DNA of 64,000 nt from a virus (Duplodnaviria > Caudoviricetes). Below are positions 2,846 to 46,202 of the stretch, in pieces (positions within the stretch are counted from its first letter, which is position 1; each line of letters opens with the position of its first letter). Made by a program: the position numbers and the translations under genes. The notes below the pieces were generated by a model that was not told the DNA's origin, searched no databases, and saw only the letters and a list, made by a program, of their open reading frames with translations. The DNA is taken from the IMG/VR virus record IMGVR_UViG_3300033062_002302, one strand, 5' to 3'.

Positions 2846-5800
2846 ATGGTTGTAGTTAGATCTTTAAATGAAATTATATTAAGTCTAATTGACTTCTATC
2901 GAATTGCTCAGCCAAATTTAGATACTAAGCCAGCAACCGTAGCTCGGGATCTTTTAATTGATGCGCCTTCTAATCAGCTCGCTCTTCTTTATGATCAAAT
3001 CTCTCAAGTCTCAACTCAGCAATCATTACAGCTAGTTACAGGATCTGACCTAGATAAATTAGCCAAAAATTTTGGTATTACTCGCAAATCAGCTACGGCT
3101 TCCTCTGGAGTTGCTTTAATTACTTTTAGTTCAATTCCTGCAACGATTGGGATTGGGCGCGGTGACATTGTAACTGCGGCTAATGGAATTTCGTATTCTG
3201 TTGTTAATGGCATTTCTGTAAGTCCAACCAACATTAATTTTTATCGTTCTACTGCAACGAAATTTAGAAATGATTTAGATTTCGTTGGAATTACAGATCA
3301 ATTTGCAGTTGAGGTTACGGTTCAATCAACAACTCCTGGGACTCAAGGAAATATTGGCAAATATAGCTTGAACAGAACGACTACTCCTGGAGCGAGTAAT
3401 GTAACCAATACTAGTTCTTTCTTGGGTGGAAACAATCAAGAGGATGATGCGACTTTTCGAAATAGAGTCTTATCTGTCTTTAGTGGCTCCAGCATTGGAA
3501 CGGCGTTAGGATATCGAAATTTAGCTTTGTCTACGACAGGGGTAACAGATGCCTTTGTAGTTGAGCCAGGCAACCCGCTAATGACCCGCGATGGCTCGGT
3601 CGTCTCCGAGGATGCTTCAGGCAATTTGACGGTCATATCGGAAGGTACAGGTGGCAAGGTTGACATCGTTATCCTGGGAACAGATTTGGTTGAGAATACG
3701 GATAGCTTTATCTATAGAGATAAGAGCAATAAGAATGACCCAACAGATCCAAAGAATACGGTTGTTTTAGGTCAAATTACAGGCGATGAAAATAAAACAA
3801 TTAATAGAAGAAGAATTGACAATATTAAAGCCGGAACTCTTCCATCTCAACCTGTTGATTCTATTATTCAGGTTAGCGGCTCGGGGAGCGGGTCCAACTT
3901 TAAAGAACAAACAATTGATTCTTTTGGAAGAGTTTCTGGAAACTACAAGCTAGTTAAAGATACAGGTTCTTTTGCGGGTAGTCCATTTGGTTTTGATAGC
4001 TTTATTTGGACTTCAGACCGCATTTCTCTCTTTGAAGAAGATAGAATTAAGGGTAAATTTAACGGGCAAGATGCCGTGACATTTTCAGATGTTTCTGAAA
4101 TTCCAATTATTCAACAAAATATTTCGATTACAAATGAAAATAGCACGGTTTTAAATTCAGACCGTTCTCTTATTCAATTACTTCATTTTCCAGCCAAGAC
4201 GGCAACTCGTGTTTTCAATAGTACAACAGGTGAACGGTATACAGTTTTAAATCAAAATCCAAATGGCTCTGGAACAACCAATACTTCTGGGGTTATTAAA
4301 ATCTCAGGAAATACCCTTCCATCTCAGAGCGATGTTCTTCAAGTAGATTATACTTGGGTTCTAACTTTCGACCAGTTTACAGATTATGATGGTAGGTTCT
4401 TTACTGATAATTTAAGAGAAGTAACAGATAGCATTGATTGGGGTTATTCTAATTTAATTAGAGATGAAGAAGTTATGCTGTCTCAAAATGATGCTGGAAC
4501 TTATTATGTCGGAAATACGACCTTACCAATTGGAGCTATTTTAACAGTAAACTCTTATGAAGAAATTGGCGGCGTCGTTAGCCAAGTTACTTCTGGAACT
4601 TATACTGGACGTTTAAGCGTTGTCATTACTAATTTAATTAATACTACAACTTCAATAGATCATGTTTTATTTAGAAATACGAATGTAGAGTTATTTAAAA
4701 CTTCTGCTAATGATGGGTTATTTACTAATGCTAGTATTGTTGTTGGAATTGATATTCAATATACAACGACGATTATTTTACCCAGTGATACGAAGGCGTC
4801 GATTGGCGATACAGTTACAGTAATTAAAAATTCAAAAGATACTTTTAATGTTACTGGATCTGTTGGAAACTTTAATGGCAATCAAGTAACGGTTCCTTTA
4901 ACTAATTTTAGCACCACCCCAGATACATTGACGGCTAAAATAAATTACATTGCTAATGTTCAGGATATTATATCGACTGGCATTACAAGCATGCCAGTGA
5001 GCCGAGTTGGAAATGGCTTTGGGACTAATTCTAGCATTGGCTTTAATAATGTCAATATTGCAAACGTTGCCAGGCGAGAAAATCAAGTCGTTCAAAAAAA
5101 CACGAGCAATCAGTTCTATATTGAATTAAATGCGGCAAGCGTTGATGTTAGCTTATCCTCTCTTAAGATCTTGACGGTTATTAGACTTTCAGATATTAAA
5201 GAGCTTTGGAATCAAGATAATGCTGGAACTATTGAAATAGGAACTAGTGGAAATTATCAGTTAATCTTTACTGGATTTAACACTCCAGCTATTGCAGATA
5301 AAGTTTTAGTTATCTATTATGCTGAAGACGTTAAAAGATTTCAACCATTTACATTTTCTAATGATGTTTTTAGCCGAGATTTTGGAACTCTTCAATATGA
5401 TATTACGACTAATAAGTTTAGCGTTCCATTGCATACCTTTATAGCTCAAACCGGATTAAGCTTTGAAATCTTAGAAAAAAATAGCGATGATGTTATTGCT
5501 TCTGGCTCAGATGGTTATATCACGACTCCATTCTCAAATTTATCTAAAGCTAACTTCAGCAGTTTAACTGTTAATTTCGATACGCTGGTCGATGTTGATT
5601 TAAGTCCGATTGATATTACTTCAAAAAGAATTAGAATCTTTAATTCAATTAATATAAATAACAATAATTATTATGAAATTTCAAGCTATAATGAAAATAG
5701 CAATATTTTTGTTATATCAAATGATTTTAGTAAAATTAATAAGAAACAAATCAGTGTAATTAGAGTTCTTGATGGAAAAGAATTATGGTCTGATACTGGA

Positions 5801-6958
5801 ACAATTGACGTAGATAACAACCTTCTTTTGTTTACAAAGACATCTGCCGCTTTAGCGGGCGATGATGTTATGGTTTTAACTTATGACTATGAAACCATTA
5901 AACAATCTCCAACCAAGCTTATTTTGACGGTTGTTGACTCGACGGCAAATACTGGAACCATTTCGGTTAATGGAACGACAATTACGAAGGCGAAAGATGT
6001 TTTATTCTCGGCAACTTCAACTAGTTTGAAGCAAAATTTATTTGAGGCTATTAGAAAAGTATTAGGGCTGAATTCGAATTCGTCTATTCCGAGCACCATT
6101 AAATTAGTCAAGATTACAAAATTAGAAAGAGTTTCGACAGAAGGAGAAGTCGTTCTATTATCTCAAGCAAATTATGATTTGTTAGGATTAACAATTCAAG
6201 ATAATAGTTTTTACTCAGAAAATATTATTTCAAATACAGATTATAATAATTTAGAGTTTAGCCTTCCTTCAACTCAAAACAATGTTTTGAATTTAGACGC
6301 TCAGGTTAAAGCCGGAGATAAATTTAGAATTACCTTTTATTACTCTACGACTAATGATACTGAAAATGTTATTTTTACTAGAAATGGAACCTTATACACT
6401 AATAAAGCATTTGCTTTGATTGATAAAGTTTATATTTCTAGTGGATTTAATTCTTCTCAATCAACTAGAATTATATTAAGTAATTTCAATCAGCCTATTA
6501 CTGGTTCTAGGTATAAAGTTTTTTATGATTATATGGCTCCTAAGCAGAATGAAAGAATAATTATAAAATCAAATAACAATAGGTTGGTTTCAACCGTTAC
6601 TTTTAATGTAGAAACTAATAGACCAATAAATGCGGATGTTTTAATTAGACAAGCTAAACAAGTAGATATAGATGTTACTATGAATGTTGTTATTTCTGAT
6701 TCTTTTAAGAGTTCATCTGCTCTTGTCTTGCAAAATTTGAAAGATAAGCTAGTTACGGCAATTAATGCGAATGCATTAGGAACTGTTTTAGATTCATCTA
6801 GTTTAGTTAATGCGGCATTCTCAGTCGATGGGGTTGCAGGAGCTAGAATTATCTTCTTTAATAAGACAGGTTCTTTTGGTCAGGTTCTAAGTTTAACAGC
6901 TAAGGAAGATGAATATTTTTCAGCTAACTTAGTGACGGTAGCAGCAGAAACAAGATAA
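2846..6958 (+). CDS. baseplate J / gp6-like wedge protein with large insertion (1370 aa)
   Basis: N-terminal LDKLAKNFGITRK..A, GGNNQEDDATFRNR and SIGT motifs; C-terminal VDGV region typical of baseplate J. Confidence 0.85.
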   Translation: MVVVRSLNEIILSLIDFYRIAQPNLDTKPATVARDLLIDAPSNQLALLYDQISQVSTQQSLQLVTGSDLDKLAKNFGITRKSATASSGVALITFSSIPATIGIGRGDIVTAANGISYSVVNGISVSPTNINFYRSTATKFRNDLDFVGITDQFAVEVTVQSTTPGTQGNIGKYSLNRTTTPGASNVTNTSSFLGGNNQEDDATFRNRVLSVFSGSSIGTALGYRNLALSTTGVTDAFVVEPGNPLMTRDGSVVSEDASGNLTVISEGTGGKVDIVILGTDLVENTDSFIYRDKSNKNDPTDPKNTVVLGQITGDENKTINRRRIDNIKAGTLPSQPVDSIIQVSGSGSGSNFKEQTIDSFGRVSGNYKLVKDTGSFAGSPFGFDSFIWTSDRISLFEEDRIKGKFNGQDAVTFSDVSEIPIIQQNISITNENSTVLNSDRSLIQLLHFPAKTATRVFNSTTGERYTVLNQNPNGSGTTNTSGVIKISGNTLPSQSDVLQVDYTWVLTFDQFTDYDGRFFTDNLREVTDSIDWGYSNLIRDEEVMLSQNDAGTYYVGNTTLPIGAILTVNSYEEIGGVVSQVTSGTYTGRLSVVITNLINTTTSIDHVLFRNTNVELFKTSANDGLFTNASIVVGIDIQYTTTIILPSDTKASIGDTVTVIKNSKDTFNVTGSVGNFNGNQVTVPLTNFSTTPDTLTAKINYIANVQDIISTGITSMPVSRVGNGFGTNSSIGFNNVNIANVARRENQVVQKNTSNQFYIELNAASVDVSLSSLKILTVIRLSDIKELWNQDNAGTIEIGTSGNYQLIFTGFNTPAIADKVLVIYYAEDVKRFQPFTFSNDVFSRDFGTLQYDITTNKFSVPLHTFIAQTGLSFEILEKNSDDVIASGSDGYITTPFSNLSKANFSSLTVNFDTLVDVDLSPIDITSKRIRIFNSININNNNYYEISSYNENSNIFVISNDFSKINKKQISVIRVLDGKELWSDTGTIDVDNNLLLFTKTSAALAGDDVMVLTYDYETIKQSPTKLILTVVDSTANTGTISVNGTTITKAKDVLFSATSTSLKQNLFEAIRKVLGLNSNSSIPSTIKLVKITKLERVSTEGEVVLLSQANYDLLGLTIQDNSFYSENIISNTDYNNLEFSLPSTQNNVLNLDAQVKAGDKFRITFYYSTTNDTENVIFTRNGTLYTNKAFALIDKVYISSGFNSSQSTRIILSNFNQPITGSRYKVFYDYMAPKQNERIIIKSNNNRLVSTVTFNVETNRPINADVLIRQAKQVDIDVTMNVVISDSFKSSSALVLQNLKDKLVTAINANALGTVLDSSSLVNAAFSVDGVAGARIIFFNKTGSFGQVLSLTAKEDEYFSANLVTVAAETR

Positions 6959-9900
6959 TGGATAATCTAAGAATCATAGGAGTCGAAGTCATTGATAGCG
7001 TGACGCTCGTTGCTAAATTTAGCCATAAGCTAGATTCAAGCATCGGTGCATCTAATGTCACCATCACTTCGCAATTAGACAGTGTTCCTTCACCTAATGT
7101 TTTAAAGGCAGAAGTCAATAGCGAAACATTGGTGATTACTTGTCAGCCTATGACTCCGCAAGCGCCTTATTTTATTAAGTTTTTGTCATTGCCAGCCATT
7201 CCATTTAAATCTGTCAATGCAACAGCCATCATGTTAAATGATGACGTTAGCAATCAATATTATATTATTGGACCAATTGAAGCTGGTAATATAATTCAAG
7301 ATCTCTTAATAGACTACTTAAGAGAAACTCCTTTAAATGTAACAGATAATACGACTATTGTTAATAAAGTTCTTCAAAGCTATTCATTACTTTATTCTAA
7401 AGCTTTATATGATATCAAGCAATTAAAAAATGAAAATTATTTATCTTTTGATGTCTTGGATGAAGAAAAGACTCGTCAAGAAGGACCCTTTGATCGTCTC
7501 TTAGAAGAAGGCGCCTATCAAATAACAAGAGTTGGAAAAACTCCGACCGGATTCTCCGCTACTTTAGATTTTAATTTTGAAGAGTTCCCTGATTTTCCAG
7601 TTTCTCTTTTAAAAGAAGAAGTCTCAGAACTATTAAACATAGATTTTGAAGATAATGATAATACATTTAATATAAACACTTTTACTTTAAATGTGTCTAA
7701 GACAAATGTATCTAAGTTATTAAGTGTTATTTTTCATTATAATAACGGTCATTTAGATTACGAATATCCTATTGAAACATTGGGCTATCAAATAACCAAT
7801 TCTAAATATGATAAAGATTATGGTTTTAGCTATTTAGTGCTTTTAACAGATCAGTTTAGATTGAGTGAAGCTATTTTAAATGATCCTGATTTTTCAAATC
7901 AAAATATTTCATATGTAGAAGTAACTTATGAATATAGAAATTTGGGCAGAATTATTGATGAGGATTCCGTTACGGCTTCGACTATTTTAAGTGTTTCTAG
8001 GGAACCTTTACCTCCAATCATCAATATATTTAATTTAAAGCATGCGCCAATTGTTGATCAAAATGGAGATATTTATACAACTGGAGGCGCGACTTTTATT
8101 GATCCAAATGCTTATTTAACAACGGATAAGCATCCAGCATTTTTATATGAAATTGCATTTCGTCTTAATGCATTGCCTCGACGTCCTGGCGAATATTGCA
8201 TTGATTATGAAACTGGAACGGTTTATGTCTTTGGAGAAGATGCTGATAATGATGGAACGGGACCTCAACCACCACTCATTAGCTATGATTATCAATTTAC
8301 TTATGTCTCTCAGGTTGATTACGTTTATGACGCTTCCTCTGGAGATTTAGTTGCTTTACCTAATGGAAATTTAGTCTCTCAAGAAGGAGACATAACTTTT
8401 AATTATGAAGAAGTTTTAGTTCCTGATTTAGATTATCGAGCAACGGTTCATCAAGAAAATCTATCAGAAAGAATTGAAAATAAATTATTAGCCTTAAATG
8501 TTGTTAAAGCGGCTAATTCTCCAATTACTAATGTTTTTAGAATCTTTAATGAGACATCAGGGGAAATATACTCACCAATTCGTTGGAGTAATGATAAGAT
8601 ATATTTTTCTTATAATACCCCTCCTAATGTTTTACCTTTTACAGGAGAAAAAGTTTCTTTTAAAGATTCATTAAATGAAATATTATTCGTTAATCAAGAG
8701 CTAACAAATGGAAGTTCTATTCGAATCTTTAAATGTCTTTTATCTGATAATAATTTAGTTTCTGGCTCAGAAGATTGCTTGGCTTCATCAATTAATAATT
8801 CAATTAATTTATCTAATGATGATGTCTTTGTTAATCAAAAATGGTTTGACCCCTTTTTAACGGAAAGTCAAAACATTGATAAACTAGATGTGGTTGGTCA
8901 ATATAAAATTGATTATGCTAATGGAATTGTTTACGTTGCAGTTTCTCCAGGGCAATCTATTGAAATAGGAACGATTACTTATAAAACTAAACTAATTGAT
9001 CCTATTAATAGCCATGTCATTTCTGTAGATGATATTTATTATCAAACATCTATTTTAAATCCTAAAGATAAAACTTTTGAATACACTTCATTTGGAGAAG
9101 GATTTATTCAGCCATTAGATTTGGATGCTTCCGATGAAGGCTATCTAAATGAAACTGAGACTTCGCCTTATCAGGTTAATTCAACAAAGGTTGGAGCTTT
9201 TGTTGATGCTGTATTCGTTCCTGGCGTTTCTCAAAATATTAAGTTTATCCGTAGTCTTTATGAACTAAATGACCTTCAAAATAGTTATAGCCCCATTAAT
9301 TTTATGGAGGCTTGTACCTTTGATGGACGAGTCATTACAGTTTCTCCGATTGAAAAAACAGAATATAATATTGTTGAATATAATATTTCAGATGGTTATT
9401 TCATAACCATTAATTTGGCGCAACCATATTTATCTTCAAATATTGAATTTAATGTTTCTATTATTAGAAATTCAGATGCTCAAGAACTATGGGACAACTC
9501 TGGAATTGTTGTCGCTGGAGATCAAGTTAAGCTTAAATTATCTGGAGTCAACTCTCCAAATGCTGGAGATTCAGTTATTACAAGCTGGAGCTTGACGATT
9601 GATGATTTGTCTAGAATCATTGTTGATTATAATAAAGGAGATTTGTATATAGATTATACTTATCTTGCAGATGAAATTTTAATTAGCTATGAGTATGGGG
9701 AAAACCATATTGACTTTAGGCAATCAGAGTCAGTCTCTCCAGGTAGCACCTATTATGTAAGTTATAAGGTCGGAGCTTTACGCGATGCTTTGTTAAAGAA
9801 TTTTGGAAGCCTTGTTAATATTCCAGAGTTAAGCAATTTTGATATTAATCTTAATCGAGAAAGATATCGAGATTCATTGTCAGCCGCACTAGAGTCTTTT

Positions 9901-14085: not shown

Positions 14086-14118
14086 TAGATATAATTTGAT
14101 ATATGATAAAGAGAGAAC

Positions 14119-17100
14119 ATGACTAAAAGAAGCCCTATTTCTGGTTTGCAGAATCTATATTCCGATGCGGAGCAGTTGGATGATTCTGATTTAACGGCAG
14201 AACAAAGTTATAATAATAGCATTCAAAATGCCATTATTAATAATCATGTTGGGATAGGTGTCTTACCAGAAGTTTTAAATCAAAACATCTTATTCGATTC
14301 TTTATTGGTTTCTGGCTTATTAGATGGAACTAATATTGCCCCGCAGGCTCAGCCCACCGATTCTAATCAGGGGAATCAGCTTGAAATTGAATTAAAAAAT
14401 TCAAAAGCGGCAGGTAAGAGAACCGTTAAAATAGCTATTATTGGTTTAGATTTTGAAAATAATCTTCAATATGATACTTTGGTTTTTAAAGCCAATGAAG
14501 TTCAAATAACCAAAAAGCATTATACGAATATACTTGCTATTTTCTTTAATGATTTTATTGGAACGACAATCCAATCTTTTAATTTGGGTGGTCAAGTTAT
14601 TATTAAAGAGGCTAAGCCATTTAGTCTTTCTAGAGACCCAATTATGGCAGCTCAAGATATCGAGCCCAATCTTTTTTGGCGAGATTTCTTTGTTAGCTCT
14701 GTTTCATCTTTAACAACTCTATTAACTAATTCGCTGCCACTTTATAATATTGATAATTTAAATATCAATACTGGATATAAAGAAAATAAAGTTTTAGAAG
14801 AAAATGATGTTACTACTCAAATTGGTCAAAAATTTCTAGCAACGACCAATAATATTCAAAAAATTTCATTATTATTATCTGTTCAAAATACCAATCCTGG
14901 CTTTGAAACGGACTTGGCTTGGGAAGGCGAGCTAGTTGTTAGCATTTTTCCTCTTCAATCGACCATTCAATGCTCGACTGATATTGTTCCAAATTTAGCT
15001 ATTGATTTTTCTCCATCTAATATTCCATTGGCTCAATTAAGCTTTGATTATGATAGTCTTCAAAGTCTTGGAACGACTCTTGATGGGAACCCTCAGCCAG
15101 TAGACTTTGTTTTTAGTAATACTCAAGTTGGAACTGGCAATGCTATTGTTCCAGGAAATTATTACGCTGTAACTTTAAAACGCTCTGGGTCAGCTAATAA
15201 ATGTGATATTTTAATAACGGCAGGAAGTAATATTAGCTCTGATTCTAGAGCAACAATGTTTACTGGAAGTGTTTGGGTTGATTTGCCAGACGATGATCTT
15301 TGGCATCGAGTCTTTACTGACGCAGCTAAGATTTCAGATGGTCAGGCATATGAAACTGGGCACGGAATTATTATTCCTAAAATTAATTTAGATTCAGAAA
15401 CGAATGCTCAAATTGATTATTCATTAGATGGAATTCAGTTTACTGGAACAGAATTATATACTGGCGTTGTTGCCGCCGAATTAGAGCAAAGCGTCCCAAT
15501 TCAGGATCAAAGAACCGGCAACCCGGTTAATTCTCGTCAGCAGTTCGTTCCCAAAGTTAAACTATTAAACCCAATAGATTTATCAAATCTTTCCAAGACG
15601 ACAGAGCCTTTTGTTGTTGGTCTTGTTGCAGATAAGAATAAAAAATCTTTTGAAGCTTCAAGCTCTGTTCTATCAGCCGGACTTCATTCTTGGACTTTCG
15701 TTAAAAACGAATTACAATTAAAAATCATTGATGATAGCACAGATGGATATCGATATGATTTAAATGTTAATGCTTTGGTAAACAATTTAGTAAATGGTGA
15801 TTTTACCAATGCTAAACTTATTCCAAACATTTCTGAGCCAAATACTTTTTATCGTGTAGCCAAAGCCGAATTATGCTCTATGATTTATGGAGATATTAAT
15901 GGTGATGGTGTTGTTGACGATGCTGATTTAGATCTTTATAATTTACTCTTAGGAATGGACCTTAATGTCTCTCCTCCGGCAATAAGCTCCATCTCAACAG
16001 ATGGATATGTTACGACTTATACAAATGGGTACCCATTCTATGCAGATCCTTTTGTTAATGACTTTACCGTTACTTTCCAGCTTGTTGATCCTGCAACTAA
16101 TTTAGTTGTCGCATCTGGAACTGACGGCATTTTAGTTGTTAATCCAAATGATGGTAGTTTAGCTACTTTTCAGAGCGCTTCAACTAATTTCTCAGCTATT
16201 ACCAATCTAATTAATTTAAAATTGGTAATTAGACTATCAACGAATGAATGTAATAATGGCGGTATTGAGATTACGAGCCTTAATACTTCTTCAAATTATA
16301 TTGTTAATTTAAGAAAAGTTCTATTAGATAGCGACAAAATATCTCAGATTTTAAGAGCAGATATCGATGGTGATTTTGAGATTACTGCAAATGACGGTTA
16401 TTATTTACAGAATTATATTTTAAAAGCTCCTCCATTTCCAGCGACAACTTCACCTGGGAATAAAATTGGAACATCATTTAATGTTCTTAAATTAAAGTTA
16501 GATCCATTCACCTATCAAGATGGGTATTTTACTCGGAATGACGATTTCTATCCAACCATCTCTAATCGTGGGACTGTTTTACATCCTATTCAAGATTTGT
16601 ATTTGGAAGATACTGGATTAGAAAATCATGACTTTAAAAATAACCCTATTACTTTTAATCTTGTTAAACAATTAACTTGGGAAGAAAGATTAATTTCAGT
16701 TGCAAGTAATGCTAGATTTGTTCCGACCATTTTTAGTTCTACATCTGGTCACGTTCATAACAGCTGTGAAATAGACGGTATTGTTTGTGATATTTATCCT
16801 CAGGGTCCAGAATTAGATCCAGGGACGATTAATGCTTTCGTTCCTAATAATCTTATTATTGGTGATGGTGGAGAGTTACAAAGACCAGATGGAAATCCAT
16901 ATAAAGTAGACTTTGAAGTTGGAACGATTGTCTTAGAAATTCCAGATGGAATTTTCGGAGAAGAGCGAACCTTAAATGTTTTTGATGACTTCGTTGCAGA
17001 TTATACTGGAAAAGGAATCACAAGGCTAGGCTTCCCGGCGCTTCGTTTTGCTGACTGTTCATTAGTTGAACAAGAGGCTTTACTTAATAATCAAGTTAGA

Positions 17101-17877
17101 TTCTCTGTTGCAGTTCAATCTTTTAGCCCAAATACTAATGGAACAGACTCAGATGGTTATTCAGGGGTTATCGTTGATGGTAAAATCGGCGTCTCCATGG
17201 ATTACGCAACTGGATTGTTAAGACTTAACTTCACGAACCTTTATGAAGATTCCGTTCTTCAGACTTTAAATACTAAAGTTCAAATTAACGTTTACCTTAA
17301 AAAAGGTGGGTTTAATAACTCTCCATTGTTTGTAGATTCGACCAAGGTTCAAAACTTATTAGAATTAATCAGCGTTTTCAATGAAAATAGCCCATTAGAA
17401 GGTTCAACCAATCACACTCAAGTTACTCAGCAAACGACGACAGAATGGAAAGATACGAGTTCTACTGATTATAGCGCTTCTGCTCCAAAGGCGTCTAAAC
17501 GCGAGAGGCGCCGTCAGTTTACGACCACTACTTCAACAGCCAATCAGGTTATTGAAGATGGCTATACGTTTGGCAATGTAGATTTCAGCTTATCAGATGA
17601 GGCGATTACGAGAGTCACCGCCTTGCTATTAGTTAAAAAATCCGGGACTGCATTTGGCGGTACCATTGAAATGAAGGCGGATTATATTAGAGAGGGAGCT
17701 GGACCCGTTTTAATTGGCGCCCCGACCATTACTTATAATTTGACTGGATCGACCTTGGACGGAACGACAGCTGATTTTAATATCAATGGAAATAAGATTG
17801 AGATTAGAGTTTCTCCTGAAAGCGCTGATATTTTGAATTGGCGAATCTTCCGGACTCAAAATGAAGGAATAGACTAA
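14119..17877 (+). CDS. baseplate/tail-fibre attachment virion protein with dockerin-like Ca-binding loops (1252 aa)
   Basis: N-terminal N-L-Y-x-D-x-E-x-L..DL..EQ.Y motif of baseplate-hinge proteins; GDINGDGVVDDAD and ADIDGDFEITAND loops. Confidence 0.6.
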   Translation: MTKRSPISGLQNLYSDAEQLDDSDLTAEQSYNNSIQNAIINNHVGIGVLPEVLNQNILFDSLLVSGLLDGTNIAPQAQPTDSNQGNQLEIELKNSKAAGKRTVKIAIIGLDFENNLQYDTLVFKANEVQITKKHYTNILAIFFNDFIGTTIQSFNLGGQVIIKEAKPFSLSRDPIMAAQDIEPNLFWRDFFVSSVSSLTTLLTNSLPLYNIDNLNINTGYKENKVLEENDVTTQIGQKFLATTNNIQKISLLLSVQNTNPGFETDLAWEGELVVSIFPLQSTIQCSTDIVPNLAIDFSPSNIPLAQLSFDYDSLQSLGTTLDGNPQPVDFVFSNTQVGTGNAIVPGNYYAVTLKRSGSANKCDILITAGSNISSDSRATMFTGSVWVDLPDDDLWHRVFTDAAKISDGQAYETGHGIIIPKINLDSETNAQIDYSLDGIQFTGTELYTGVVAAELEQSVPIQDQRTGNPVNSRQQFVPKVKLLNPIDLSNLSKTTEPFVVGLVADKNKKSFEASSSVLSAGLHSWTFVKNELQLKIIDDSTDGYRYDLNVNALVNNLVNGDFTNAKLIPNISEPNTFYRVAKAELCSMIYGDINGDGVVDDADLDLYNLLLGMDLNVSPPAISSISTDGYVTTYTNGYPFYADPFVNDFTVTFQLVDPATNLVVASGTDGILVVNPNDGSLATFQSASTNFSAITNLINLKLVIRLSTNECNNGGIEITSLNTSSNYIVNLRKVLLDSDKISQILRADIDGDFEITANDGYYLQNYILKAPPFPATTSPGNKIGTSFNVLKLKLDPFTYQDGYFTRNDDFYPTISNRGTVLHPIQDLYLEDTGLENHDFKNNPITFNLVKQLTWEERLISVASNARFVPTIFSSTSGHVHNSCEIDGIVCDIYPQGPELDPGTINAFVPNNLIIGDGGELQRPDGNPYKVDFEVGTIVLEIPDGIFGEERTLNVFDDFVADYTGKGITRLGFPALRFADCSLVEQEALLNNQVRFSVAVQSFSPNTNGTDSDGYSGVIVDGKIGVSMDYATGLLRLNFTNLYEDSVLQTLNTKVQINVYLKKGGFNNSPLFVDSTKVQNLLELISVFNENSPLEGSTNHTQVTQQTTTEWKDTSSTDYSASAPKASKRERRRQFTTTTSTANQVIEDGYTFGNVDFSLSDEAITRVTALLLVKKSGTAFGGTIEMKADYIREGAGPVLIGAPTITYNLTGSTLDGTTADFNINGNKIEIRVSPESADILNWRIFRTQNEGID

Positions 17878-17901
17878 GATATATTGATATATTAAGATCG
17901 C

Positions 17902-19023
17902 ATGAAGATCTTAATACATCAATTTCTTGGCAAAAATCATAGTTGGAGCGCCGTAGGGTGGGGAACGGCTAATGCTTTAATTAACCAAGGACATGAAGTT
18001 GAATTATTTTCAACGGATGGAATTGAGCATATTCCAAATAATTTAAGAAAGCATGTGATTGGGCATGTCGAAGAGAATAAGCCTGGCAAAATCTTTGGAA
18101 GATTACCGGGAACTTATGATTGTCAGATTAGTTATACTGCTATGCGAAACTTTCAGAAGTATTTAAGCTTTGGAAATAAAAATAGATTTGGTATTTGGAC
18201 CTATGAATGGAATGGAAAAAATGTTCTTCCTTCTGGTTTTGCCAAAGCTTATAAGAATTGCGATTACTTATGTGCTCCATCTCAATTCTCTAAAGATATT
18301 TTTATCAATTCAGGAATTCCTGGAGATAAAGTTCATGTCATTCCTCATGGAATTGGCTCTGAATTTTCTGGAGAATCTAAAATTGATCTTAAAACAAATA
18401 AGAAATTTAAAATATTAGCTAATATAGCTCAAAACCATATAAGGAAGAATATAAATGGTTTATTAGAAGCATATGGAAAAGCATTTAATAAAAATGATGA
18501 TGTTATTTTAATATTAAAATCAAAATTCAAACCTGTTAAATATGGGTTTGAAGTGTCTCTTCAAGAAATTGTGAGTTCATTCAAGAAGAAATATCCCGAC
18601 CATGCTGAGTTAAAAATTTTTGAACAATTTGTTCCGGACATCTCCTCCTTATATAGGAGTGTGGATACCGTCTTCTCGCTTTCTCACTGCGAAGGATTTT
18701 TAATGCCTGGGCTTGAATCATTGGCTTCTGGAAAAATTGTCATTGCTCCTAATTGGGGCGGTCAGGTTGATTTTTTAAATGATTCCAATGCTCTTCTTGT
18801 TTCCGGGAAAGAGGCACGAGCCAACCCGGCAAGCATGTACTGGGAATCAAAACAAAATGCAATTTGGTTTGTCCCGGATATAGAGGATGCAGCCAGCAAA
18901 TTAAGGTACGCTTACGATAATTTTATCTCTTTAAATGAGAGCGTCGAAAGCCAAAGAGAAGCTATATTAAAAAAATATAGTTGGGAATCCATCACAACTC
19001 AAATGTTGAATTTAACCAAATGA
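17902..19023 (+). CDS. GT-B glycosyltransferase (GT4-like)
   Basis: RKN..LLEAY, SHCEGFLMPGLE (ExFGxxxxE-like) and YSWE motifs. Confidence 0.9.
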   Translation: MKILIHQFLGKNHSWSAVGWGTANALINQGHEVELFSTDGIEHIPNNLRKHVIGHVEENKPGKIFGRLPGTYDCQISYTAMRNFQKYLSFGNKNRFGIWTYEWNGKNVLPSGFAKAYKNCDYLCAPSQFSKDIFINSGIPGDKVHVIPHGIGSEFSGESKIDLKTNKKFKILANIAQNHIRKNINGLLEAYGKAFNKNDDVILILKSKFKPVKYGFEVSLQEIVSSFKKKYPDHAELKIFEQFVPDISSLYRSVDTVFSLSHCEGFLMPGLESLASGKIVIAPNWGGQVDFLNDSNALLVSGKEARANPASMYWESKQNAIWFVPDIEDAASKLRYAYDNFISLNESVESQREAILKKYSWESITTQMLNLTK

Positions 19024-19712
19024 TTTATGATTTAAGCATCGTTATTCCAGTCTTCAATAATTGGAGCTATACTAAAAATTGCATTAGTAATTTATTGAAA
19101 TTGCCTGAATCATTTGAAATCATTATTGTTGATAATGCCAGCTCTGATTTAACGAAAACCGAACTTTCTAAATTTGAAAGAGTTAAACATATTAGAAATG
19201 AAACTAATTTTGGCTTCGGAAAAGCAGTAAGTCAGGGCGTTCAAGCAGCGCAATCCAATCAGATTATGATTTTAAACAATGACATTAAATTTGGAAATGT
19301 CTTTCAGGATTGGTTTTTATCATTACCTCAAATTATCAAAGATAATAATAAGTTAATTGGACCAACGGCTGGATATGTGGATCCAGAGAATGAATTTAGT
19401 TTTGTTTATGAAACTTCTAATAAAGAAGATAAAATTAATTATATGAGTGGTTGGTGTTTGTCTGCTAATCGAGAGACCTGGGATAAATTAGAGACTGGAG
19501 ATGGTCCTTTTGATAGTAAGACTTTCTTTCTTTATTTTGAAGATACTGATTTATCATTTCGAGCCAAATCTCTTAACATTGATTTTATGCTGATTGATAC
19601 TCCTTTAAAACATATTGGAAAGCAGACTTCTAAGTTATTGAATATTAGCAAACATTATTCTGAATCAAAAGTTAAATTTTTAAATAAATGGAATAATAAG
19701 TATCCATTTTGA
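19020..19712 (+). CDS. GT2 glycosyltransferase
   Basis: LSIVIPVFN, IIVDNAS, N.GF, LNND and YFEDTDL motifs; start moved to ATG 19020, which overlaps the upstream stop (ATGA). Confidence 0.9.
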   Translation: MIYDLSIVIPVFNNWSYTKNCISNLLKLPESFEIIIVDNASSDLTKTELSKFERVKHIRNETNFGFGKAVSQGVQAAQSNQIMILNNDIKFGNVFQDWFLSLPQIIKDNNKLIGPTAGYVDPENEFSFVYETSNKEDKINYMSGWCLSANRETWDKLETGDGPFDSKTFFLYFEDTDLSFRAKSLNIDFMLIDTPLKHIGKQTSKLLNISKHYSESKVKFLNKWNNKYPF

Positions 19713-19723
19713 AAGATTATTAA

Positions 19724-20689
19724 ATGTCATTATCAACCAAAATTATTATGTTTGTTCTTGCAGTCCTTCTGTTAATAGGGGGAGGTTTAATTGTTTTCAA
19801 GCAATTTGAGATTGCTCGACGTCAAGAGGCAATTGAAAAAGAAATGGTTGGTCAGAAAGAGTTGGCTGACGGAATTACTCGGGCTCTTGCTCAATATGCA
19901 ACCAAGCAGGACATTAATAATCTCGCTAAAGAAAATAATGTCAACATGAAAGTTATCCAAAATGACTTGGATAAGTTAAATGCTTCAATTATGGCAATCA
20001 ACGTTGTAACCTCGAAGAGTCAAGGGCAAGTTGTTAAAGGAGCTGGGTCAACTAATACGGTTCCTGGGACTGATGTTCCCCCGTTAGCTTTAACTTACCC
20101 AGATCCTTATAAATATCAACAAGATACTCAAGTCATTAAGCTTAATGAAAGCTTTGGAAACGTTAAAGTTCCAATAGGAGAAGTTTCTTTCTCGGCTTGG
20201 AAAGAAAAGCCATGGGATTATAATATTCCACCACGGGAATATAAGATGGTTACGGTTCTAGGAATGGATGAACAACAGCGTCAATATGCTTATAATAAAT
20301 TTACGATCAACGATCAAGAAGTTAAAATAGCCAATAGCACTTTTAAGCAAGAGTACCCGGAAGGAAAATTTAGTTTTTTCAATCCCAGGCTGTACATAGG
20401 AATGGATGCTGGTATAAACTTGAGGAGCGTTCGGGGCGAAGCCGTCCCAAATGTTAGCCTTCAACTAATGAGTTATGGAAAATATAAGAATAATCCCGAT
20501 TTATCCATTCTTCAAGTTGGCGCAGGCTATGGAATTGATGCCAAGCAAGTTTCGGGCTCATTAACGCCAATTATGTATAATGTTGGGCAACATATTCCTT
20601 TAATGAATAATTTATATATTGGACCGTCTGTTCAAGTTAATGCATCGGGAGATGTTGGGATTATGGGAAGCGCTAAGGTGGGGTTATAA
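19724..20689 (+). CDS. membrane-anchored protein: N-terminal TM helix, coiled coil, C-terminal amphipathic beta strands (spanin-like?)
   Basis: Hydrophobic residues 7-25, then a helical region, then alternating Gly/aromatic strands. Confidence 0.5.
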   Translation: MSLSTKIIMFVLAVLLLIGGGLIVFKQFEIARRQEAIEKEMVGQKELADGITRALAQYATKQDINNLAKENNVNMKVIQNDLDKLNASIMAINVVTSKSQGQVVKGAGSTNTVPGTDVPPLALTYPDPYKYQQDTQVIKLNESFGNVKVPIGEVSFSAWKEKPWDYNIPPREYKMVTVLGMDEQQRQYAYNKFTINDQEVKIANSTFKQEYPEGKFSFFNPRLYIGMDAGINLRSVRGEAVPNVSLQLMSYGKYKNNPDLSILQVGAGYGIDAKQVSGSLTPIMYNVGQHIPLMNNLYIGPSVQVNASGDVGIMGSAKVGL

Positions 20690-21522
20690 TGCTTAAAATA
20701 TTAACTTTAAATTGGAATGGGAAAGAAAAGTTAGAGAAACTTTACCCATCATTAATTAATGCTTTGGATGGTATTGATTATCAATATTTAATAAAAGATA
20801 ACGGCTCGGTTGATGAATCCGTTTCATTTATTAAGAGCCTTAATAATCCTAAGGTTAAAGTAATCGAGTATGGACATAATAGAGATAATTTTGCTCAGGG
20901 ATGTAATCTTTTATTCAAAGAATCAGATCCTAAAGATGATGATTTAATTCTTCTATTAAATAATGATGTCATTTTTAATGATAAAAAATCTATTCATAAT
21001 ATGATGAATATGTTTAAAGATCCAGAGGTTGGTCTCGTTGGCGCTAAATTAAAATTTGTTGGAACAAATCTAATTCAACATGGTGGAGTTGTTTTTAGTA
21101 AGAGCAATGGGCTTCCAATGCATTTTAAAGCTCATCAGCAGGATGATAAGTCAACTCAAAAGCATCGAGAGTTTCAAGCTGTAACAGGGGCTGTTTGGAT
21201 GACTACAGCAAGTCTTTACAATCAAATCTGTCAAACTAATAAATCAGGGCAGAATGGCTTGGATGAAGGTTTCTTTTGGTGTTTTGAAGATATTTCAGCT
21301 GGATTGTCTATAAAATATTCTCTTGGTAAAAAAGTTGTTTATTGCGGAACGACCGATATATTTCATGAAGAAAGCGCGACTCTGAAAAAGAACCCGGCAA
21401 ATAAGTTATTTATGAATCATAATATCAATCATTTTAGAACATTGTGGCGTGATAAATATCTTGTCGATGAAGAAGTCTTTGCTAAGAATGCAAATCATAA
21501 TGTGTATGAGATGGTAAAATGA
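20689..21522 (+). CDS. GT2 glycosyltransferase
   Basis: LNWNG, KDNGS, NFAQGCN, LLNND, QHGG, AVTGA, FED and HEESAT motifs (WbbL/rhamnosyltransferase-like). Confidence 0.9.
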   Translation: MLKILTLNWNGKEKLEKLYPSLINALDGIDYQYLIKDNGSVDESVSFIKSLNNPKVKVIEYGHNRDNFAQGCNLLFKESDPKDDDLILLLNNDVIFNDKKSIHNMMNMFKDPEVGLVGAKLKFVGTNLIQHGGVVFSKSNGLPMHFKAHQQDDKSTQKHREFQAVTGAVWMTTASLYNQICQTNKSGQNGLDEGFFWCFEDISAGLSIKYSLGKKVVYCGTTDIFHEESATLKKNPANKLFMNHNINHFRTLWRDKYLVDEEVFAKNANHNVYEMVK

Positions 21523-23618
21523 AGAAGATACTTATAACAGGGACAGCGGGATTTATTCTTTCTAATTTTGTTAGAAAGGCGATTCATGACCAAATCCAAT
21601 CTGGAACTCACAATTATAAATTCGTTAGTATTGACAAGATGGCTAAGACATCTGTTTTAGGTAATATTTATCAAAATAAGAATCATCAGTTTTATATTGG
21701 TGACATTTGCGATTCTCATTTTTTAGATGTCATATTTGAATATGAGCGCCCTGATATTGTTCTTCATGGGGCAGCCGAGAGTCATGTTGATGATTCTCTT
21801 AAAGATACTGTTAAGTTCATTCAAAATAATGTTGTTGGGACTCAAACTTTGGTCAACGCTGCCGTTAAATGGGGCGTGGAGAAGTTTGTTCATATCTCAT
21901 GTTATGATGAACAAACGAAAGCGGTAACTAAAAGCGGAATAAAATCTTATCAAGAATTAAAAGAAGGGGACTTAGTTCTTTCAATTAATCCTGAAACGAA
22001 AGAAATTGAAGAAAAAGAAATTGAAAAAATAATAGTTCAAGATTATTCTGGCGATATGTATCATTTTAAATCTAATAGAGTCGATTTTTTAACTACGCCA
22101 AATCATAGATACATTTATGAACAAAATAATAAATTACATTGGACGACTTCAGAAGAAATGTCAGATGTCAAAGGAAAAAGCTATTTGCCAAAAGGCTCTA
22201 TTAATAGAGCATATAAAAAATATATAAATATCCCAGGTTTAGGGAAAGTAGACTCTAATGCTTTATTTTATGTTTGTGGCGCTTTTATTGGCGATGGTTT
22301 TACTGCTTATCAAGAAAAAATACGTGAAAATAAAAGTGGATATACTAGAGCTGATTTTATAAAAAAATGTCGGGATCCTAAAACTGGAAGAATTATATCA
22401 TCAAAAAATACAGATCCAAATGCCCCTAAATTTATAGTTACGCATAACTATCGTATTTTTTTTGATGTTCCAGAAAATGATAAATGCAGAGTTAAATTAG
22501 AAAAGGCTTTGACTAAATTAAAAATTAATTTTCATGCTGAAAAAAATAAATCTGGCGAACACATTTATTTTTCTTCAGAGAAATGGCTTAAATTCTTTGA
22601 TACTTTTGGGAAATATGCTGAAAATAAATTTATTCCAGAATGGATGTTTGATTATGGATATGATAATTTATTTAATTTATTAATGGGAATCCATGATTCT
22701 GATGGGCATGGTTATAATATTAGAGGTAAAGGCGCTTTGACAACATGCTCTCTCAAGTTAAGAGATCAGTATTGTTACTTGGCAACAATGTTAGGATTTC
22801 ATGCAAGATTTAATGAGCAAGGGCATAATCCAAACGCTTCTATCAATGGAAGAATTATTCATCAAAATTTTAAGGCTTGGCAAATTCATTTTTCTAATAA
22901 ACTTAGCCCATTATTTCCTAAAGCAAATATAATTAATTATAATGGTAAAATATGGTGTTTAAAAGTTAAAGATAATAAAAATTTTCTTGTTATTAGAAAT
23001 GGAATTAGCGCTTTTTCAGGAAATACGGACGAGTCATACGGTCAATTGAAAAGCGATTCTGAGCCATCCTGGACCGAGGAATCCCCGATCAATCCACGAA
23101 ACCCATATGCTGCTAGTAAAGCGGCAAGTGAATTGGTTGTTCAGGCAGCTGGGACTTCCTTTGGATTGAATTACAACATTACTCGTTCTTCTAATAATTA
23201 TGGTCCAAGGCAAACGGCAGAAAAGCTTTTGCCGAAAACAATTAAAAGCATTTTGAATAATCAAAAGATTCCGGTTTATGGGCAAGGGCTTCAAATTCGA
23301 GATTGGACCTATGTTACAGATAACTGTGCTGGATTAATGAAGGTTATTACAGATGGAAAGCCAAACGAAATATATAACATTTCGGCAAATCAAGAATGTA
23401 CTAATATTGAAATAATTCAAAAGATTTGCAATATTATGGGACGAGGTCATGATTTAATCGATTTTATTAAAGATCCAAGAGGCAATGCGCATGATTTTAG
23501 ATATTCAATTGACGCTTCTAAATTAAAGAAGCTTGGTTGGGCTCCGGAGATAAAGCTTCCGGAAGGATTGGAAATGTGTGTCAATTGGTATAATAATAAT
23601 CAATACTATTTAAAATAA
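21519..23618 (+). CDS. rmlB: dTDP-glucose 4,6-dehydratase containing an intein
   Basis: TGTAGFI, AAESHVD, HIS|TDE (split by intein), PYAASK, NNYGPRQ..EKL and IRDW motifs; spliced length 324 aa. Confidence 0.92.
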   Translation: MKKILITGTAGFILSNFVRKAIHDQIQSGTHNYKFVSIDKMAKTSVLGNIYQNKNHQFYIGDICDSHFLDVIFEYERPDIVLHGAAESHVDDSLKDTVKFIQNNVVGTQTLVNAAVKWGVEKFVHISCYDEQTKAVTKSGIKSYQELKEGDLVLSINPETKEIEEKEIEKIIVQDYSGDMYHFKSNRVDFLTTPNHRYIYEQNNKLHWTTSEEMSDVKGKSYLPKGSINRAYKKYINIPGLGKVDSNALFYVCGAFIGDGFTAYQEKIRENKSGYTRADFIKKCRDPKTGRIISSKNTDPNAPKFIVTHNYRIFFDVPENDKCRVKLEKALTKLKINFHAEKNKSGEHIYFSSEKWLKFFDTFGKYAENKFIPEWMFDYGYDNLFNLLMGIHDSDGHGYNIRGKGALTTCSLKLRDQYCYLATMLGFHARFNEQGHNPNASINGRIIHQNFKAWQIHFSNKLSPLFPKANIINYNGKIWCLKVKDNKNFLVIRNGISAFSGNTDESYGQLKSDSEPSWTEESPINPRNPYAASKAASELVVQAAGTSFGLNYNITRSSNNYGPRQTAEKLLPKTIKSILNNQKIPVYGQGLQIRDWTYVTDNCAGLMKVITDGKPNEIYNISANQECTNIEIIQKICNIMGRGHDLIDFIKDPRGNAHDFRYSIDASKLKKLGWAPEIKLPEGLEMCVNWYNNNQYYLK
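21900..23024 (+). mobile_element. intein with LAGLIDADG endonuclease in RmlB (375 aa)
   Basis: Starts CYDEQT; block B TPNH; GAFIGDG and GIHDSDG motifs; block F IWCLKV; ends SGN followed by Thr. Confidence 0.9.
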
Positions 23619-45056: not shown

Positions 45057-45463
45057 AATATTTAAAAGAAATTATTAGGTTAGCAGACAAGTTCGCTCAA
45101 CAGATTGAGCAAAATGGAACGACTGAATTGTTTTTTGATTCGGCAGATAAGCAAAAGCTGTTTTCAGAAATTATACAAAATCCAGATGGTAAAGCTGCAA
45201 ACATTTTAAAAAAATATTATGAAACATCGGGACAACCAACTTCATTTTCATTAAAAATTAATGCTACTCCTAACGTTGGAGCAGAGTGGATATTACGAGT
45301 TAGTCCAGCCTCTTTAACTAAACAAGTTGAAGCGATAATTGATGCAGAATTTCAATCTTTTATGAAACAAAACCGTGCGGCAAGATTAAGCCAAGCTCAG
45401 GCAAAAGCTAAAGCTGGCTCCGGAGCCGGATTATTAAATGTTGGAAGTCTTGATTTAGAATAA
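45053..45463 (+). CDS. hypothetical protein
   Basis: TTG start overlapping the upstream TGA. Confidence 0.55.
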   Translation: MKYLKEIIRLADKFAQQIEQNGTTELFFDSADKQKLFSEIIQNPDGKAANILKKYYETSGQPTSFSLKINATPNVGAEWILRVSPASLTKQVEAIIDAEFQSFMKQNRAARLSQAQAKAKAGSGAGLLNVGSLDLE

Positions 45464-45479
45464 TAAAGGAGAATAAGAT

Positions 45480-46124: not shown

Positions 46125-46184
46125 AAAATCCATGATATAATAATTGATACCGAACTAGGTATTAAGGATTATTCATGGGTTTTT
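46124..46184. promoter_or_regulatory. 60-nt imperfect inverted repeat containing a perfect extended -10 (TGaTATAAT, 46133-46141)
   Basis: AAAAATCCATGA/TCATGGGTTTTT outer stem; TTGATACC/GGTATTAA inner stem. Confidence 0.6.
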
Positions 46185-46202
46185 ACGTAAAGGTTTGTCT
46201 TA

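What the first reader, a model, noticed from the sequence alone, without database searches (positions are those of the whole stretch)
5510..23618. D-G-Y tripeptide installed across unrelated virion proteins next to a glycosylation cluster: candidate virion Tyr-glycosylation system
Seen: DGY occurs 12 times in the 2375-aa wedge (9391, 10222, 10420, 10444, 11257, 11281, 11363, 11401, 11533, 11653, 12292, 13573), 6 times in the 1252-aa protein (15742, 16000, 16393, 16519, 17152, 17557), once in baseplate J (5510), twice in the fibre (43175, 43331) and once in the 81-aa protein (44847). That is 22 in predicted virion proteins versus about four that I found in all other genes of the window. A rough composition estimate predicts well under 1 per 2400 aa. 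Codons vary synonymously (GAT/GAC, all four GGN, TAT/TAC), so it is not a DNA repeat. A GT4, two GT2 and RmlB genes begin 25 nt after the last of the large DGY-rich genes. Known: Tyr O-glycosylation occurs on some bacterial S-layers, and some phages glycosylate virions with their own glycosyltransferases. Inference: DGY is the acceptor sequon for a phage-encoded modification, such as a rhamnose/6-deoxyhexose glycan coat on the baseplate. I know of no description of this sequon.
Basis: partly seen in the sequence, partly recalled or inferred. Interest (0 to 1): 0.93.

Follow-up and report, generated by a model that had tools for sequence, protein, structure and literature searches.

The report
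DGY tag on huge-phage tail proteins
The outward-facing tail, neck and baseplate proteins of this uncultured huge phage carry the tripeptide Asp-Gly-Tyr about 14 times more often than chance, and the motif evolves like a tag that something reads, most plausibly one of the phage's own sugar-adding enzymes, though no modification has been shown.

Summary
In the 239-kb phage record, a 54-kb neck-to-baseplate gene block has 42 DGY against 3.0 expected (p 5e-33). The next tripeptide reaches only p 1e-5, and the rest of the genome has 13 against 8.7.

It is a protein-level signal. Codon use at the sites matches background, and 42 matches are in frame against 2 out of frame.

Across 120 homologues of the 2375-aa wedge protein, DGY occupies 128 alignment columns; DGF has 11, NGY 11 and EGY 2. 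Sites sit in loops, hairpin turns and insertions, and they turn over quickly.

At least six scattered lineages have lost the motif, including at its two best-conserved sites, with the same folds intact. That excludes a structural requirement and points to a trans-acting reader.

The link to the adjacent glycosyltransferases is only partly supported:
- The GT2 genes are dispensable.
- The upstream GT fusion does not co-vary with DGY.
- The GT4 gene is present in every DGY-rich lineage where the region is visible, and absent in three of six informative DGY-poor ones.
- One DGY-poor lineage keeps an intact GT4.

No chemistry has been shown. This scan has noted the same motif in at least 21 other genomes.

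The parts
2846..6958 (+). Baseplate J-like wedge protein, 1370 aa; 1 DGY (5510)
   Evidence: Pfam Baseplate_J 4.7e-18 and phrog_6 6e-37; DGY count
6958..14085 (+). W: 2375-aa peripheral baseplate protein with LamG-like domains; 12 DGY, all between residues 812 and 2206
   Evidence: More than 336 homologues. Across 120 homologues DGY occupies 128 alignment columns. AF2 model of residues 1075-1625, pLDDT 81, places the DGY sites at hairpin turns and loops.
10939..11436 (+). Internal domain duplicate inside W (residues 1328-1398 and 1424-1493). Copy 2 has DGY at four turns where copy 1 has IGS, AGS, VGF and AGQ.
   Evidence: BLASTP of the two halves: 39% identity, E 2e-12. The family consensus at these turns is xGx.
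14119..17877 (+). P: 1252-aa baseplate or fibre-like protein with no Pfam family; 6 DGY
   Evidence: Homologues carry 0-13 DGY. Some homologues have dockerin-like D-x-N-G-D-G-Y loops.
17902..19023 (+). GT4-family GT-B glycosyltransferase, 373 aa, with EX7E motif (E264, E272). It is the only GT found in every DGY-rich lineage.
   Evidence: Pfam Glyco_transf_4 and Glycos_transf_1. 36 conserved columns. Present in 58 of 59 visible DGY-rich loci and elsewhere in the record of the 59th. Absent in L007, L008 and L092.
18981..19712 (+). GT2 glycosyltransferase a, 243 aa; dispensable for DGY enrichment
   Evidence: Pfam Glycos_transf_2 2.9e-21. Missing in DGY-rich L010, L018/19, L034 and L057. The complete genome G008 has no GT2 gene.
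19724..20689 (+). U321: conserved 321-aa protein of unknown function, with a long N-terminal helix and an all-beta body
   Evidence: No Pfam hit. AF2 pLDDT 86. No PDB fold match. Kept in DGY-poor L007.
20689..21522 (+). GT2 glycosyltransferase b, 277 aa; dispensable for DGY enrichment
   Evidence: Pfam Glycos_transf_2 1.4e-9
21519..23618 (+). RmlB-like NDP-sugar 4,6-dehydratase, 699 aa, interrupted by an intein of about 374 aa
   Evidence: Pfam GDP_Man_Dehyd and Epimerase match in two pieces, plus Intein_splicing. The alignment to the uninterrupted 329-aa orthologue breaks at ...HIS|C... and resumes at TDES.
42713..43816 (+). 367-aa fibre-like protein; 2 DGY, one in each copy of an internal repeat of about 52 aa
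44688..45056 (+). Small ORF with 1 DGY (44847).

Best explanation
DGY is a short linear tag that selection places on exposed beta-hairpin tips and loops of the outward-facing neck, sheath, baseplate and fibre proteins of this huge-phage clade. A trans-acting factor reads it. The most likely reader is a soluble phage glycosyltransferase, with the conserved GT4 enzyme encoded directly after the baseplate genes as the best candidate. It would attach a sugar to the tyrosine hydroxyl of folded virion proteins in the host cytoplasm; the other GTs, where present, would extend the glycan.

Shown: the enrichment, its specificity, its turnover, its loop location, its coordinated loss, and the presence of GT4 in every DGY-rich lineage.

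For: 1. Size and restriction of the enrichment: 42 against 3.0 in the neck-to-baseplate block and 13 against 8.7 elsewhere. Within the block, neck to sheath has 22 against 1.3 and J/W/P 19 against 1.0. The ten ORFs between sheath and gp25-like protein (tube-like, 1622-aa and others) have 1 against 0.6.

2. Specificity: in 120 W homologues DGY fills 128 alignment columns, against DGF 11, DGW 1, NGY 11, SGY 16 and EGY 2. The preference for Tyr over Phe points to the hydroxyl.

3. Turnover: only about six columns are widely shared, and counts per protein run from 2 to 21. Relatives at 40% identity have DGY at different positions. In an internal duplicate, four xGx turns became DGY.

4. Location: of 78 DGY columns in the modelled region, 38 are insertions, 33 loops or turns, 5 strand ends and 2 strand cores.

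5. Coordinated loss: at least six scattered lineages (L007, L008, L009+L042, L085, L091, L092, L090) are at background in the proteins visible for each; for L009 and L085 this was also checked in the sheath and neck homologues. At W1089 and W1155, DGY is present in 40 and 57 of about 78 rich rows and in 0 of 10 poor rows. No replacement motif appears.

6. GT link: synteny W-P-GT4-... holds down to 32% identity. GT4 is present in 58 of 59 visible DGY-rich loci and elsewhere in the record of the 59th. It is absent in 3 of 6 informative poor lineages. Fisher p is 5e-4 naive, and 4e-3 if the rich loci are counted as only 25 events. The GT4 of poor lineage L091 has E272D in the EX7E motif and K115A.

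7. No Wzy_C-type O-oligosaccharyltransferase is found in this record or in five complete relatives. Any glycosylation would therefore be direct and cytoplasmic, as phage assembly requires.
Against: - There is no chemical evidence of any modification.
- L009 is DGY-poor throughout (sheath 0, W 1, P 2). Yet it keeps a GT4 with all 36 conserved residues on an ordinary branch, plus U321 and RmlB. G008 has the same local gene set and is DGY-rich. GT4 is therefore not sufficient.
- GT4 is nearly universal in the clade, so co-occurrence with DGY is partly phylogenetic inertia. Only three losses inform the test.
- The GT genes could serve other acceptors, such as the collagen-like 2572-aa protein or host or DNA targets.
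- Non-virion proteins are not depleted of DGY (13 against 8.7). A promiscuous cytoplasmic enzyme might be expected to select against stray sites.
- I know of no Tyr-directed GT4 enzyme.
Confidence: 0.4

Rival explanations
1. DGY is a non-covalent docking or adhesion motif. Exposed Asp-Gly-Tyr hairpin tips would bind a partner without being modified. The partner could be a phage decoration or fibre protein, the phage's own glycan or collagen-like fibres, or a polysaccharide on the host or particle surface. Lineages that changed partner or host lost the motif.
For: The same signature fits binding as well as catalysis: a read motif with specificity, turnover, loop location and coordinated loss. 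Sites cluster, with six of 27 spacings at 8 residues or fewer (for example DGYDGY, DGYGDGY), which suits multivalent binding. The phage encodes many small proteins and LamG lectin-like proteins that could be partners.
Against: No partner is identified. Three residues give very little binding energy or specificity. The strict Tyr-over-Phe preference favours chemistry at the hydroxyl, although a hydrogen bond would also need it. The three GT4 losses in DGY-poor lineages would be coincidence.
Confidence: 0.22
2. DGY is the site of another covalent change, such as Tyr phosphorylation, sulfation, nucleotidylation or cross-linking, or isoaspartate chemistry at Asp-Gly. The enzyme would be phage or host encoded and has not been recognised.
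For: The evidence for a read, hydroxyl-dependent tag does not say which group is added. The imperfect GT4 correlation leaves room for another enzyme. Most genes of the record have no annotation.
Against: No kinase, sulfotransferase or similar gene was seen among the genes I annotated around the block, but I ran no dedicated search for them. The only modification genes that flank the block on both sides are sugar genes.
Confidence: 0.12
3. DGY is a lineage-specific structural preference. Asp-Gly makes a tight turn, and Tyr caps the following strand to stabilise exposed hairpins of all-beta tail proteins. No reader is involved.
For: The sites do sit at hairpin turns and loops. DG is a classic turn dipeptide. 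The one universally kept site (W2206) is in a LamG core motif. A few sites lie in dockerin or EF-hand-like loops.
Against: Orthologous proteins with the same domains fold without it in at least six lineages. NGY, DGF and DGW are not enriched. In the internal duplicate the fold tolerates IGS, AGS, VGF and AGQ. Inner tail proteins and the rest of the proteome show no enrichment. Simultaneous loss across unrelated proteins is not expected for local stability.
Confidence: 0.1
4. The signal is an artefact of composition, of a repeated domain or DNA repeat, or of chance.
For: The two DGY of the 367-aa protein are one duplicated unit, and a few sites are shared by descent.
Against: p is 5e-33 after composition correction, and the signal survives a Markov model. 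Contexts are unrelated. Codon use is at background and 42 of 44 matches are in frame. The signal recurs in hundreds of diverged homologues at different positions.
Confidence: 0.01

Closest known systems
Virion glycosylation of mycobacteriophages by phage-encoded glycosyltransferases (Freeman et al. 2023, Cell Host Microbe 31:1216; cited in PMC12582341; the paper itself is not held)
   Same: Tailed phages carry GT genes beside their structural genes and coat virion proteins with glycans made in the host cytoplasm.
   Different: In those phages the modification is shown. From my own knowledge, it sits on capsid and tail-tube subunits and no tripeptide sequon is described. Here nothing chemical is shown, the marked proteins are neck, sheath, baseplate and fibre proteins of a 400-kb-class myophage, and the mark is a defined tripeptide with Tyr.
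Tyrosine O-glycosylation of bacterial S-layer proteins (Paenibacillus alvei SpaA, Thermoanaerobacter; review PMC2943079)
   Same: Glycans O-linked to Tyr (beta-Glc-Tyr, beta-Gal-Tyr), often with rhamnose-containing adaptors, on self-assembling surface proteins at several sites.
   Different: S-layer glycans are built on a lipid carrier and transferred outside the cytoplasm by an O-oligosaccharyltransferase. The word 'consensus' does not occur in that review's text, and I know of no sequon for these sites. No Wzy_C or Bac_transf gene is found in this record, and no Wzy_C gene in five complete relatives.
Three-residue glycosylation sequons: N-X-S/T, and the Bacteroidota O-glycosylation motif D-(S/T)-(A/I/L/V/M/T) (own knowledge)
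   Same: A minimal tripeptide on exposed loops marks acceptor sites, and sites are gained and lost while their number is kept.
   Different: The acceptor would be Tyr, not Asn, Ser or Thr. The middle residue is a fixed Gly. The enzyme would be a soluble cytoplasmic GT, not a membrane oligosaccharyltransferase.
Cytoplasmic protein glycosylation by GT-B enzymes, and virus-encoded capsid glycosylation in chloroviruses (own knowledge: GtfA/GtfB on serine-rich adhesins, EarP on an EF-P hairpin tip, PBCV-1 glycosyltransferases)
   Same: Soluble GT-B or GT4-type enzymes act on folded or repetitive protein acceptors. The GT4 profile built here also matches the chlorovirus GT B736L structure 3oy2 (E 5.5e-7).
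   Different: None of these targets Tyr in a DGY context. The similarity of the phage GT4 to them is only at family level.

Membership tests
Protein glycosylation sequon (generic) | Short motif over-represented and under selection in the target proteins, on exposed positions | tested here: met
   42 against 3.0 in the block; 128 alignment columns against 11 or fewer for near-variants; loop, turn or insertion location
Protein glycosylation sequon (generic) | A glycan is covalently attached to the motif residue | not testable with these tools
   Needs mass spectrometry or structure of virions or co-expressed proteins
Protein glycosylation sequon (generic) | A cognate transferase whose presence tracks the motif | tested here: inconclusive
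   GT4 is never absent from DGY-rich lineages and is absent in 3 of 6 informative poor ones. It is intact in poor L009. The GT2 genes and the upstream GT fusion do not track the motif.
Phage virion glycosylation system (mycobacteriophage type) | Phage-encoded glycosyltransferases next to virion structural genes | tested here: met
   GT4, GT2 and GT2 genes start 24 nt after P. The synteny is conserved down to 32% identity. A second sugar gene set lies upstream of the neck genes.
Phage virion glycosylation system (mycobacteriophage type) | Virion proteins shown to be glycosylated | not testable with these tools
   Uncultured phage; no proteomic data examined
S-layer-type Tyr O-glycosylation (O-OTase pathway) | Wzy_C-type O-oligosaccharyltransferase and an initiating phosphoglycosyl transferase | tested here: not met
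   PF04932 and PF02397 are absent from this record. PF04932 is absent from five complete relatives.
GT4 glycosyltransferase family (for ORF 17902-19023) | GT-B fold signatures and the EX7E motif | tested here: met
   Pfam Glyco_transf_4 (38.8 bits) and Glycos_transf_1 (35.7 bits), both above cut-off. E264 is invariant and E272 is conserved in over 90% of 53 homologues. The profile matches solved GT4 enzymes.
Structural beta-turn motif (type I' Asp/Asn-Gly turn plus aromatic) | Chemically equivalent variants (NG, Phe/Trp) are equally favoured, and the motif is needed for the fold | tested here: not met
   NGY 11, DGF 11 and DGW 1 columns against DGY 128. Orthologues without DGY exist in at least six lineages. 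In the internal duplicate, copy 1 has IGS, AGS, VGF and AGQ where copy 2 has DGY.

The most novel reading that the evidence does not exclude
DGY is the acceptor sequon of an undescribed cytoplasmic protein-tyrosine O-glycosylation system. A phage GT4-type enzyme would recognise Asp-Gly-Tyr on folded beta-hairpin tips and coat the whole outer tail of a widespread clade of huge phages (400-kb class) with sugars.
Probability: 0.35. Interest if true: 0.9.

Novelty: new variant of a known kind. Interest (0 to 1): 0.8.

Why it matters
If DGY is a sequon, it would be the first defined acceptor motif for tyrosine glycosylation. It would also be the first case of a phage marking its whole outer tail for modification with a three-residue code. 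That would give a simple sequence rule for predicting modified surfaces in hundreds of uncultured huge phages. It would also give a compact tag-and-enzyme pair to test for protein engineering.

A tripeptide is gained at more than 100 positions and then dropped everywhere at once in several lineages. That shows an unrecognised interaction shaping the virion surface of a large, environmentally common phage clade.

Tried and rejected
- INPHARED phages hold no relative of W.
- Full-text search for 'DGY motif' found no paper. Searches on phage and tyrosine glycosylation gave only general background.
- Foldseek against the PDB found no significant match for the W 1075-1625 model or the U321 model.
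It occurs in only one of five complete DGY-rich genomes and is absent from G001, which is DGY-rich.
- GT2a and GT2b are rejected as required parts.
- RmlB and U321 are rejected as determinants, because both are kept in DGY-poor L007.
- L025/L037 at first looked like a DGY-poor lineage with an intact GT cluster. Its neck proteins are DGY-rich (28 against 3.1), so it is not a counter-example.
- No replacement tripeptide appears in DGY-poor lineages.
- No extended consensus flanks DGY. The only hints are weak: T at -3, S/Y at +1 and T/A at +2.
- GT4 branch lengths do not single out L009.
Only secondary structure and pLDDT were used.
- The papers by Freeman et al. 2023 and Zarschler et al. 2010 are not held.

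Full report
**Context.** The window is the minus strand of positions 15,328-79,327 of a 239,327-bp IMG/VR virus record that CheckV rates 56% complete. Relatives reach 390-480 kb, so this is a huge phage.

The finding's region encodes these genes in order:
- a gp25-like protein;
- a Baseplate_J protein (1370 aa);
- W, a 2375-aa protein with LamG-like domains;
- P, a 1252-aa protein with no family;
- a GT4 glycosyltransferase, a GT2, an unknown 321-aa protein (U321) and a second GT2;
- an RmlB-like dehydratase, then a TubZ-like tubulin and replication genes.

**Observation.** All DGY coordinates are correct but one, which is off by a base. W has 12 DGY against 0.63 expected and P has 6 against 0.21. 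In each protein DGY is the most enriched of all tripeptides. In W, 12 of 20 DG are followed by Y.

I laid out the whole record. The signal extends 36 kb upstream of the window. A block of 36 ORFs, from small neck proteins through a 916-aa sheath to P, has 42 DGY against 3.0 expected (p 5e-33). The next tripeptide in the block reaches p 1e-5, and the remaining 59,758 aa have 13 against 8.7.

Within the block the enrichment is split. Neck to sheath has 22 against 1.3, and J/W/P has 19 against 1.0. The ten ORFs between the sheath and the gp25-like protein have 1 against 0.6. These include a tube-like 206-aa protein and a 1622-aa protein, and are probably inner parts. The upstream sugar and collagen module has none.

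Codon use at the sites equals the background, and 42 of 44 DNA matches are in frame. Contexts are unrelated. The effect is therefore at the protein level. It is not a repeat, apart from the two copies in the 367-aa protein.

**Relatives.** W has more than 336 homologues in public assemblies. In the closest 120, DGY occurs 2-21 times per protein (median 7, expected 0.5).

On their alignment, 923 occurrences fall in 128 columns. Only about six columns are widely shared. The near-variants occupy far fewer columns: DGF 11, DGW 1, NGY 11, SGY 16 and EGY 2. DGY lies beyond the 99.9th percentile of column count normalised by composition.

Relatives at 40% identity have similar numbers of DGY at different positions. 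Inside W, a duplicated domain of about 70 aa (39% identity) has IGS, AGS, VGF and AGQ in copy 1 where copy 2 has four DGY. The family consensus at these turns is xGx. This confirms an earlier first-reader note.

An AlphaFold2 model of W 1075-1625 (80-sequence alignment, pLDDT 81) puts the nine DGY of that region at two-residue hairpin turns, in loops, or in low-confidence loops. Of 78 DGY columns in the region, 38 are insertions relative to this phage, 33 are loops or turns, 5 are strand ends and 2 are strand cores.

**Coordinated loss.** Representatives at 50% clustering and 80 IMG/VR loci revealed DGY-poor lineages. On a tree of W they are scattered: L007, L008, L009 with L042, L085, L091, L092 and the distant L090.

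Their J, W and P proteins together carry 1-5 DGY in 4,000-8,000 aa. The L085 record has 3 in a further 9,049 aa. In L009 the sheath and neighbouring proteins have 1 in 6,155 aa.

At W1089 and W1155, DGY is present in 40 and 57 of about 78 rich rows. All ten poor rows have other residues there. Only the LamG-core site W2206 survives, and no other tripeptide takes over.

The same folds therefore exist without the motif. When the motif goes, it goes from unrelated proteins together. This is the behaviour expected if one trans-acting factor gives all the sites their value.

L025/L037 first looked poor in W and P, but it is rich in its neck proteins (28 against 3.1).

**Which factor?** Sugar genes flank the block on both sides. 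Downstream lie GT4, GT2a, U321, GT2b and RmlB. Upstream lie a 2572-aa collagen-like protein, a LamG protein, a GT2-methyltransferase-GT4 fusion, another GT-B, a cupin, an NDP-hexose C-methyltransferase, an epimerase/dehydratase and a Gfo/Idh/MocA reductase.

- The upstream fusion occurs in only one of five complete DGY-rich genomes. It more likely serves the collagen fibre.
- GT2 genes are missing next to P in the DGY-rich loci L010, L018/19, L034 and L057. The complete, terminally redundant 452-kb genome G008 has no GT2 gene at all. Yet it shows 25 DGY against 4.2, top-ranked at p 5e-12.
- RmlB and U321 are kept in L007, which is poor. U321 has a long N-terminal helix and an all-beta body with no PDB match.
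- GT4 is present in 58 of 59 DGY-rich loci where the region is visible, and elsewhere in the record of the 59th. It is absent in L007, L008 and L092.
- The GT4 of poor L091 carries E272D in the EX7E motif and K115A, and that of distant L090 deviates at 10 of 36 conserved columns.
- Against GT4 as sole reader, L009 is poor throughout but keeps a GT4 with all 36 conserved residues on an ordinary branch.

GT4 therefore looks necessary but is not sufficient. Because it is nearly universal in the clade, the association rests on three losses. Fisher p is about 5e-4 naive, and 4e-3 if the rich lineages are counted as 25 events.

**Mechanism.** The best reading is a tag on exposed hairpin tips that a phage enzyme reads. 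Sugar transfer to the Tyr hydroxyl by the soluble GT4 in the cytoplasm is the leading candidate, with other GTs extending the glycan where present.

No O-oligosaccharyltransferase or initiating phosphoglycosyl transferase is encoded in this record, and no O-oligosaccharyltransferase in five complete relatives. The S-layer route to Tyr-linked glycans (PMC2943079) therefore does not apply.

The rivals are a non-covalent docking or adhesion motif, another Tyr or Asp-Gly chemistry, and a structural turn preference. The last is strongly disfavoured by the DGY-free orthologues and by the lack of NGY and DGF enrichment. A host-encoded reader or target would also explain coordinated loss after a host change, and I could not test that.

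**Novelty.** Phage virion glycosylation is known (Freeman et al. 2023, via PMC12582341), and so are Tyr-linked bacterial glycans (PMC2943079). A tripeptide tag saturating the outer virion proteins is not described in the held literature.

Earlier notes of this scan report the same motif in at least 21 other genomes, with similar conclusions. I tested the claims independently here.

- the loss at the best-conserved sites in every poor lineage;
- the exclusion of the GT2 genes and of the upstream fusion;
- a DGY-poor lineage with an intact GT4.

Noticed in passing
window 21519-23618 (intein about 21900-23021): The RmlB-like dehydratase is split by an intein-like insert of about 374 aa. The insert starts at a Cys straight after ...KFVHIS and ends just before TDES, inside the conserved STDE active-site motif. 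Orthologues in relatives are uninterrupted at 308-331 aa.
   Followed up: partly
window 19724-20689: U321 is a conserved 321-aa protein between the two GT2 genes. It has a 38-residue N-terminal helix and an all-beta body (AF2 pLDDT 86), with no Pfam family and no PDB fold match. It is kept even where all the GTs are lost (L007).
   Followed up: partly
outside the window: record positions matching window -54,403 to -36,497 (L094, L002): A second sugar module lies upstream. It holds a 2572-aa collagen-like protein (GPQ/PQG repeats), a LamG protein, a 1082-aa GT2-methyltransferase-GT4 fusion, a GT-B, a cupin, an NDP-hexose C-methyltransferase, an epimerase/dehydratase and a Gfo/Idh/MocA reductase. 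The fusion is found in only one of five complete relatives.
   Followed up: partly
window 42713-43816: The 367-aa fibre-like protein contains two copies of a unit of about 52 aa (DLSG..QTVI.LQNRSV...DGYILTWSDM.NAW). Each copy carries one DGY.
   Followed up: no
window 45,100-64,000 and beyond: Small proteins downstream of the fibre show a mild DGY excess (7 against 1.6 expected). One 116-aa protein just beyond the window has two. Genome-wide, CPR and PRC tripeptides are also highly enriched, which reflects large families of zinc-ribbon paralogues.
   Followed up: no
window 23645-24976: A TubZ/PhuZ-like tubulin gene follows the sugar cluster directly, and this position is conserved across the clade.
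   Followed up: no
L005, L011, L013, L014, L018, L025 and other related loci: Many relatives carry an Fpg/Nei-like DNA glycosylase gene (Pfam Fapy_DNA_glyco, H2TH) inside the GT cluster, between GT2a and U321. This window lacks it.
   Followed up: no
L001:12926-13957 and L001:14633-15337 (upstream of the window): HNH/HTH-type and endonuclease VII-like genes sit among the sheath and tube genes, and a treble-clef, DUF559-like gene (447 aa) sits inside the upstream sugar module. Together with the intein, this suggests many selfish endonuclease insertions.
   Followed up: no
L008:20593-22649 and L090:22721-26584: In DGY-poor L008 the GT4 slot is filled by two proteins (433 and 233 aa) with no family. 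The distant DGY-poor L090 has a different GT set there: a GT1, a GT1-GT25 fusion and a GT2.
   Followed up: partly
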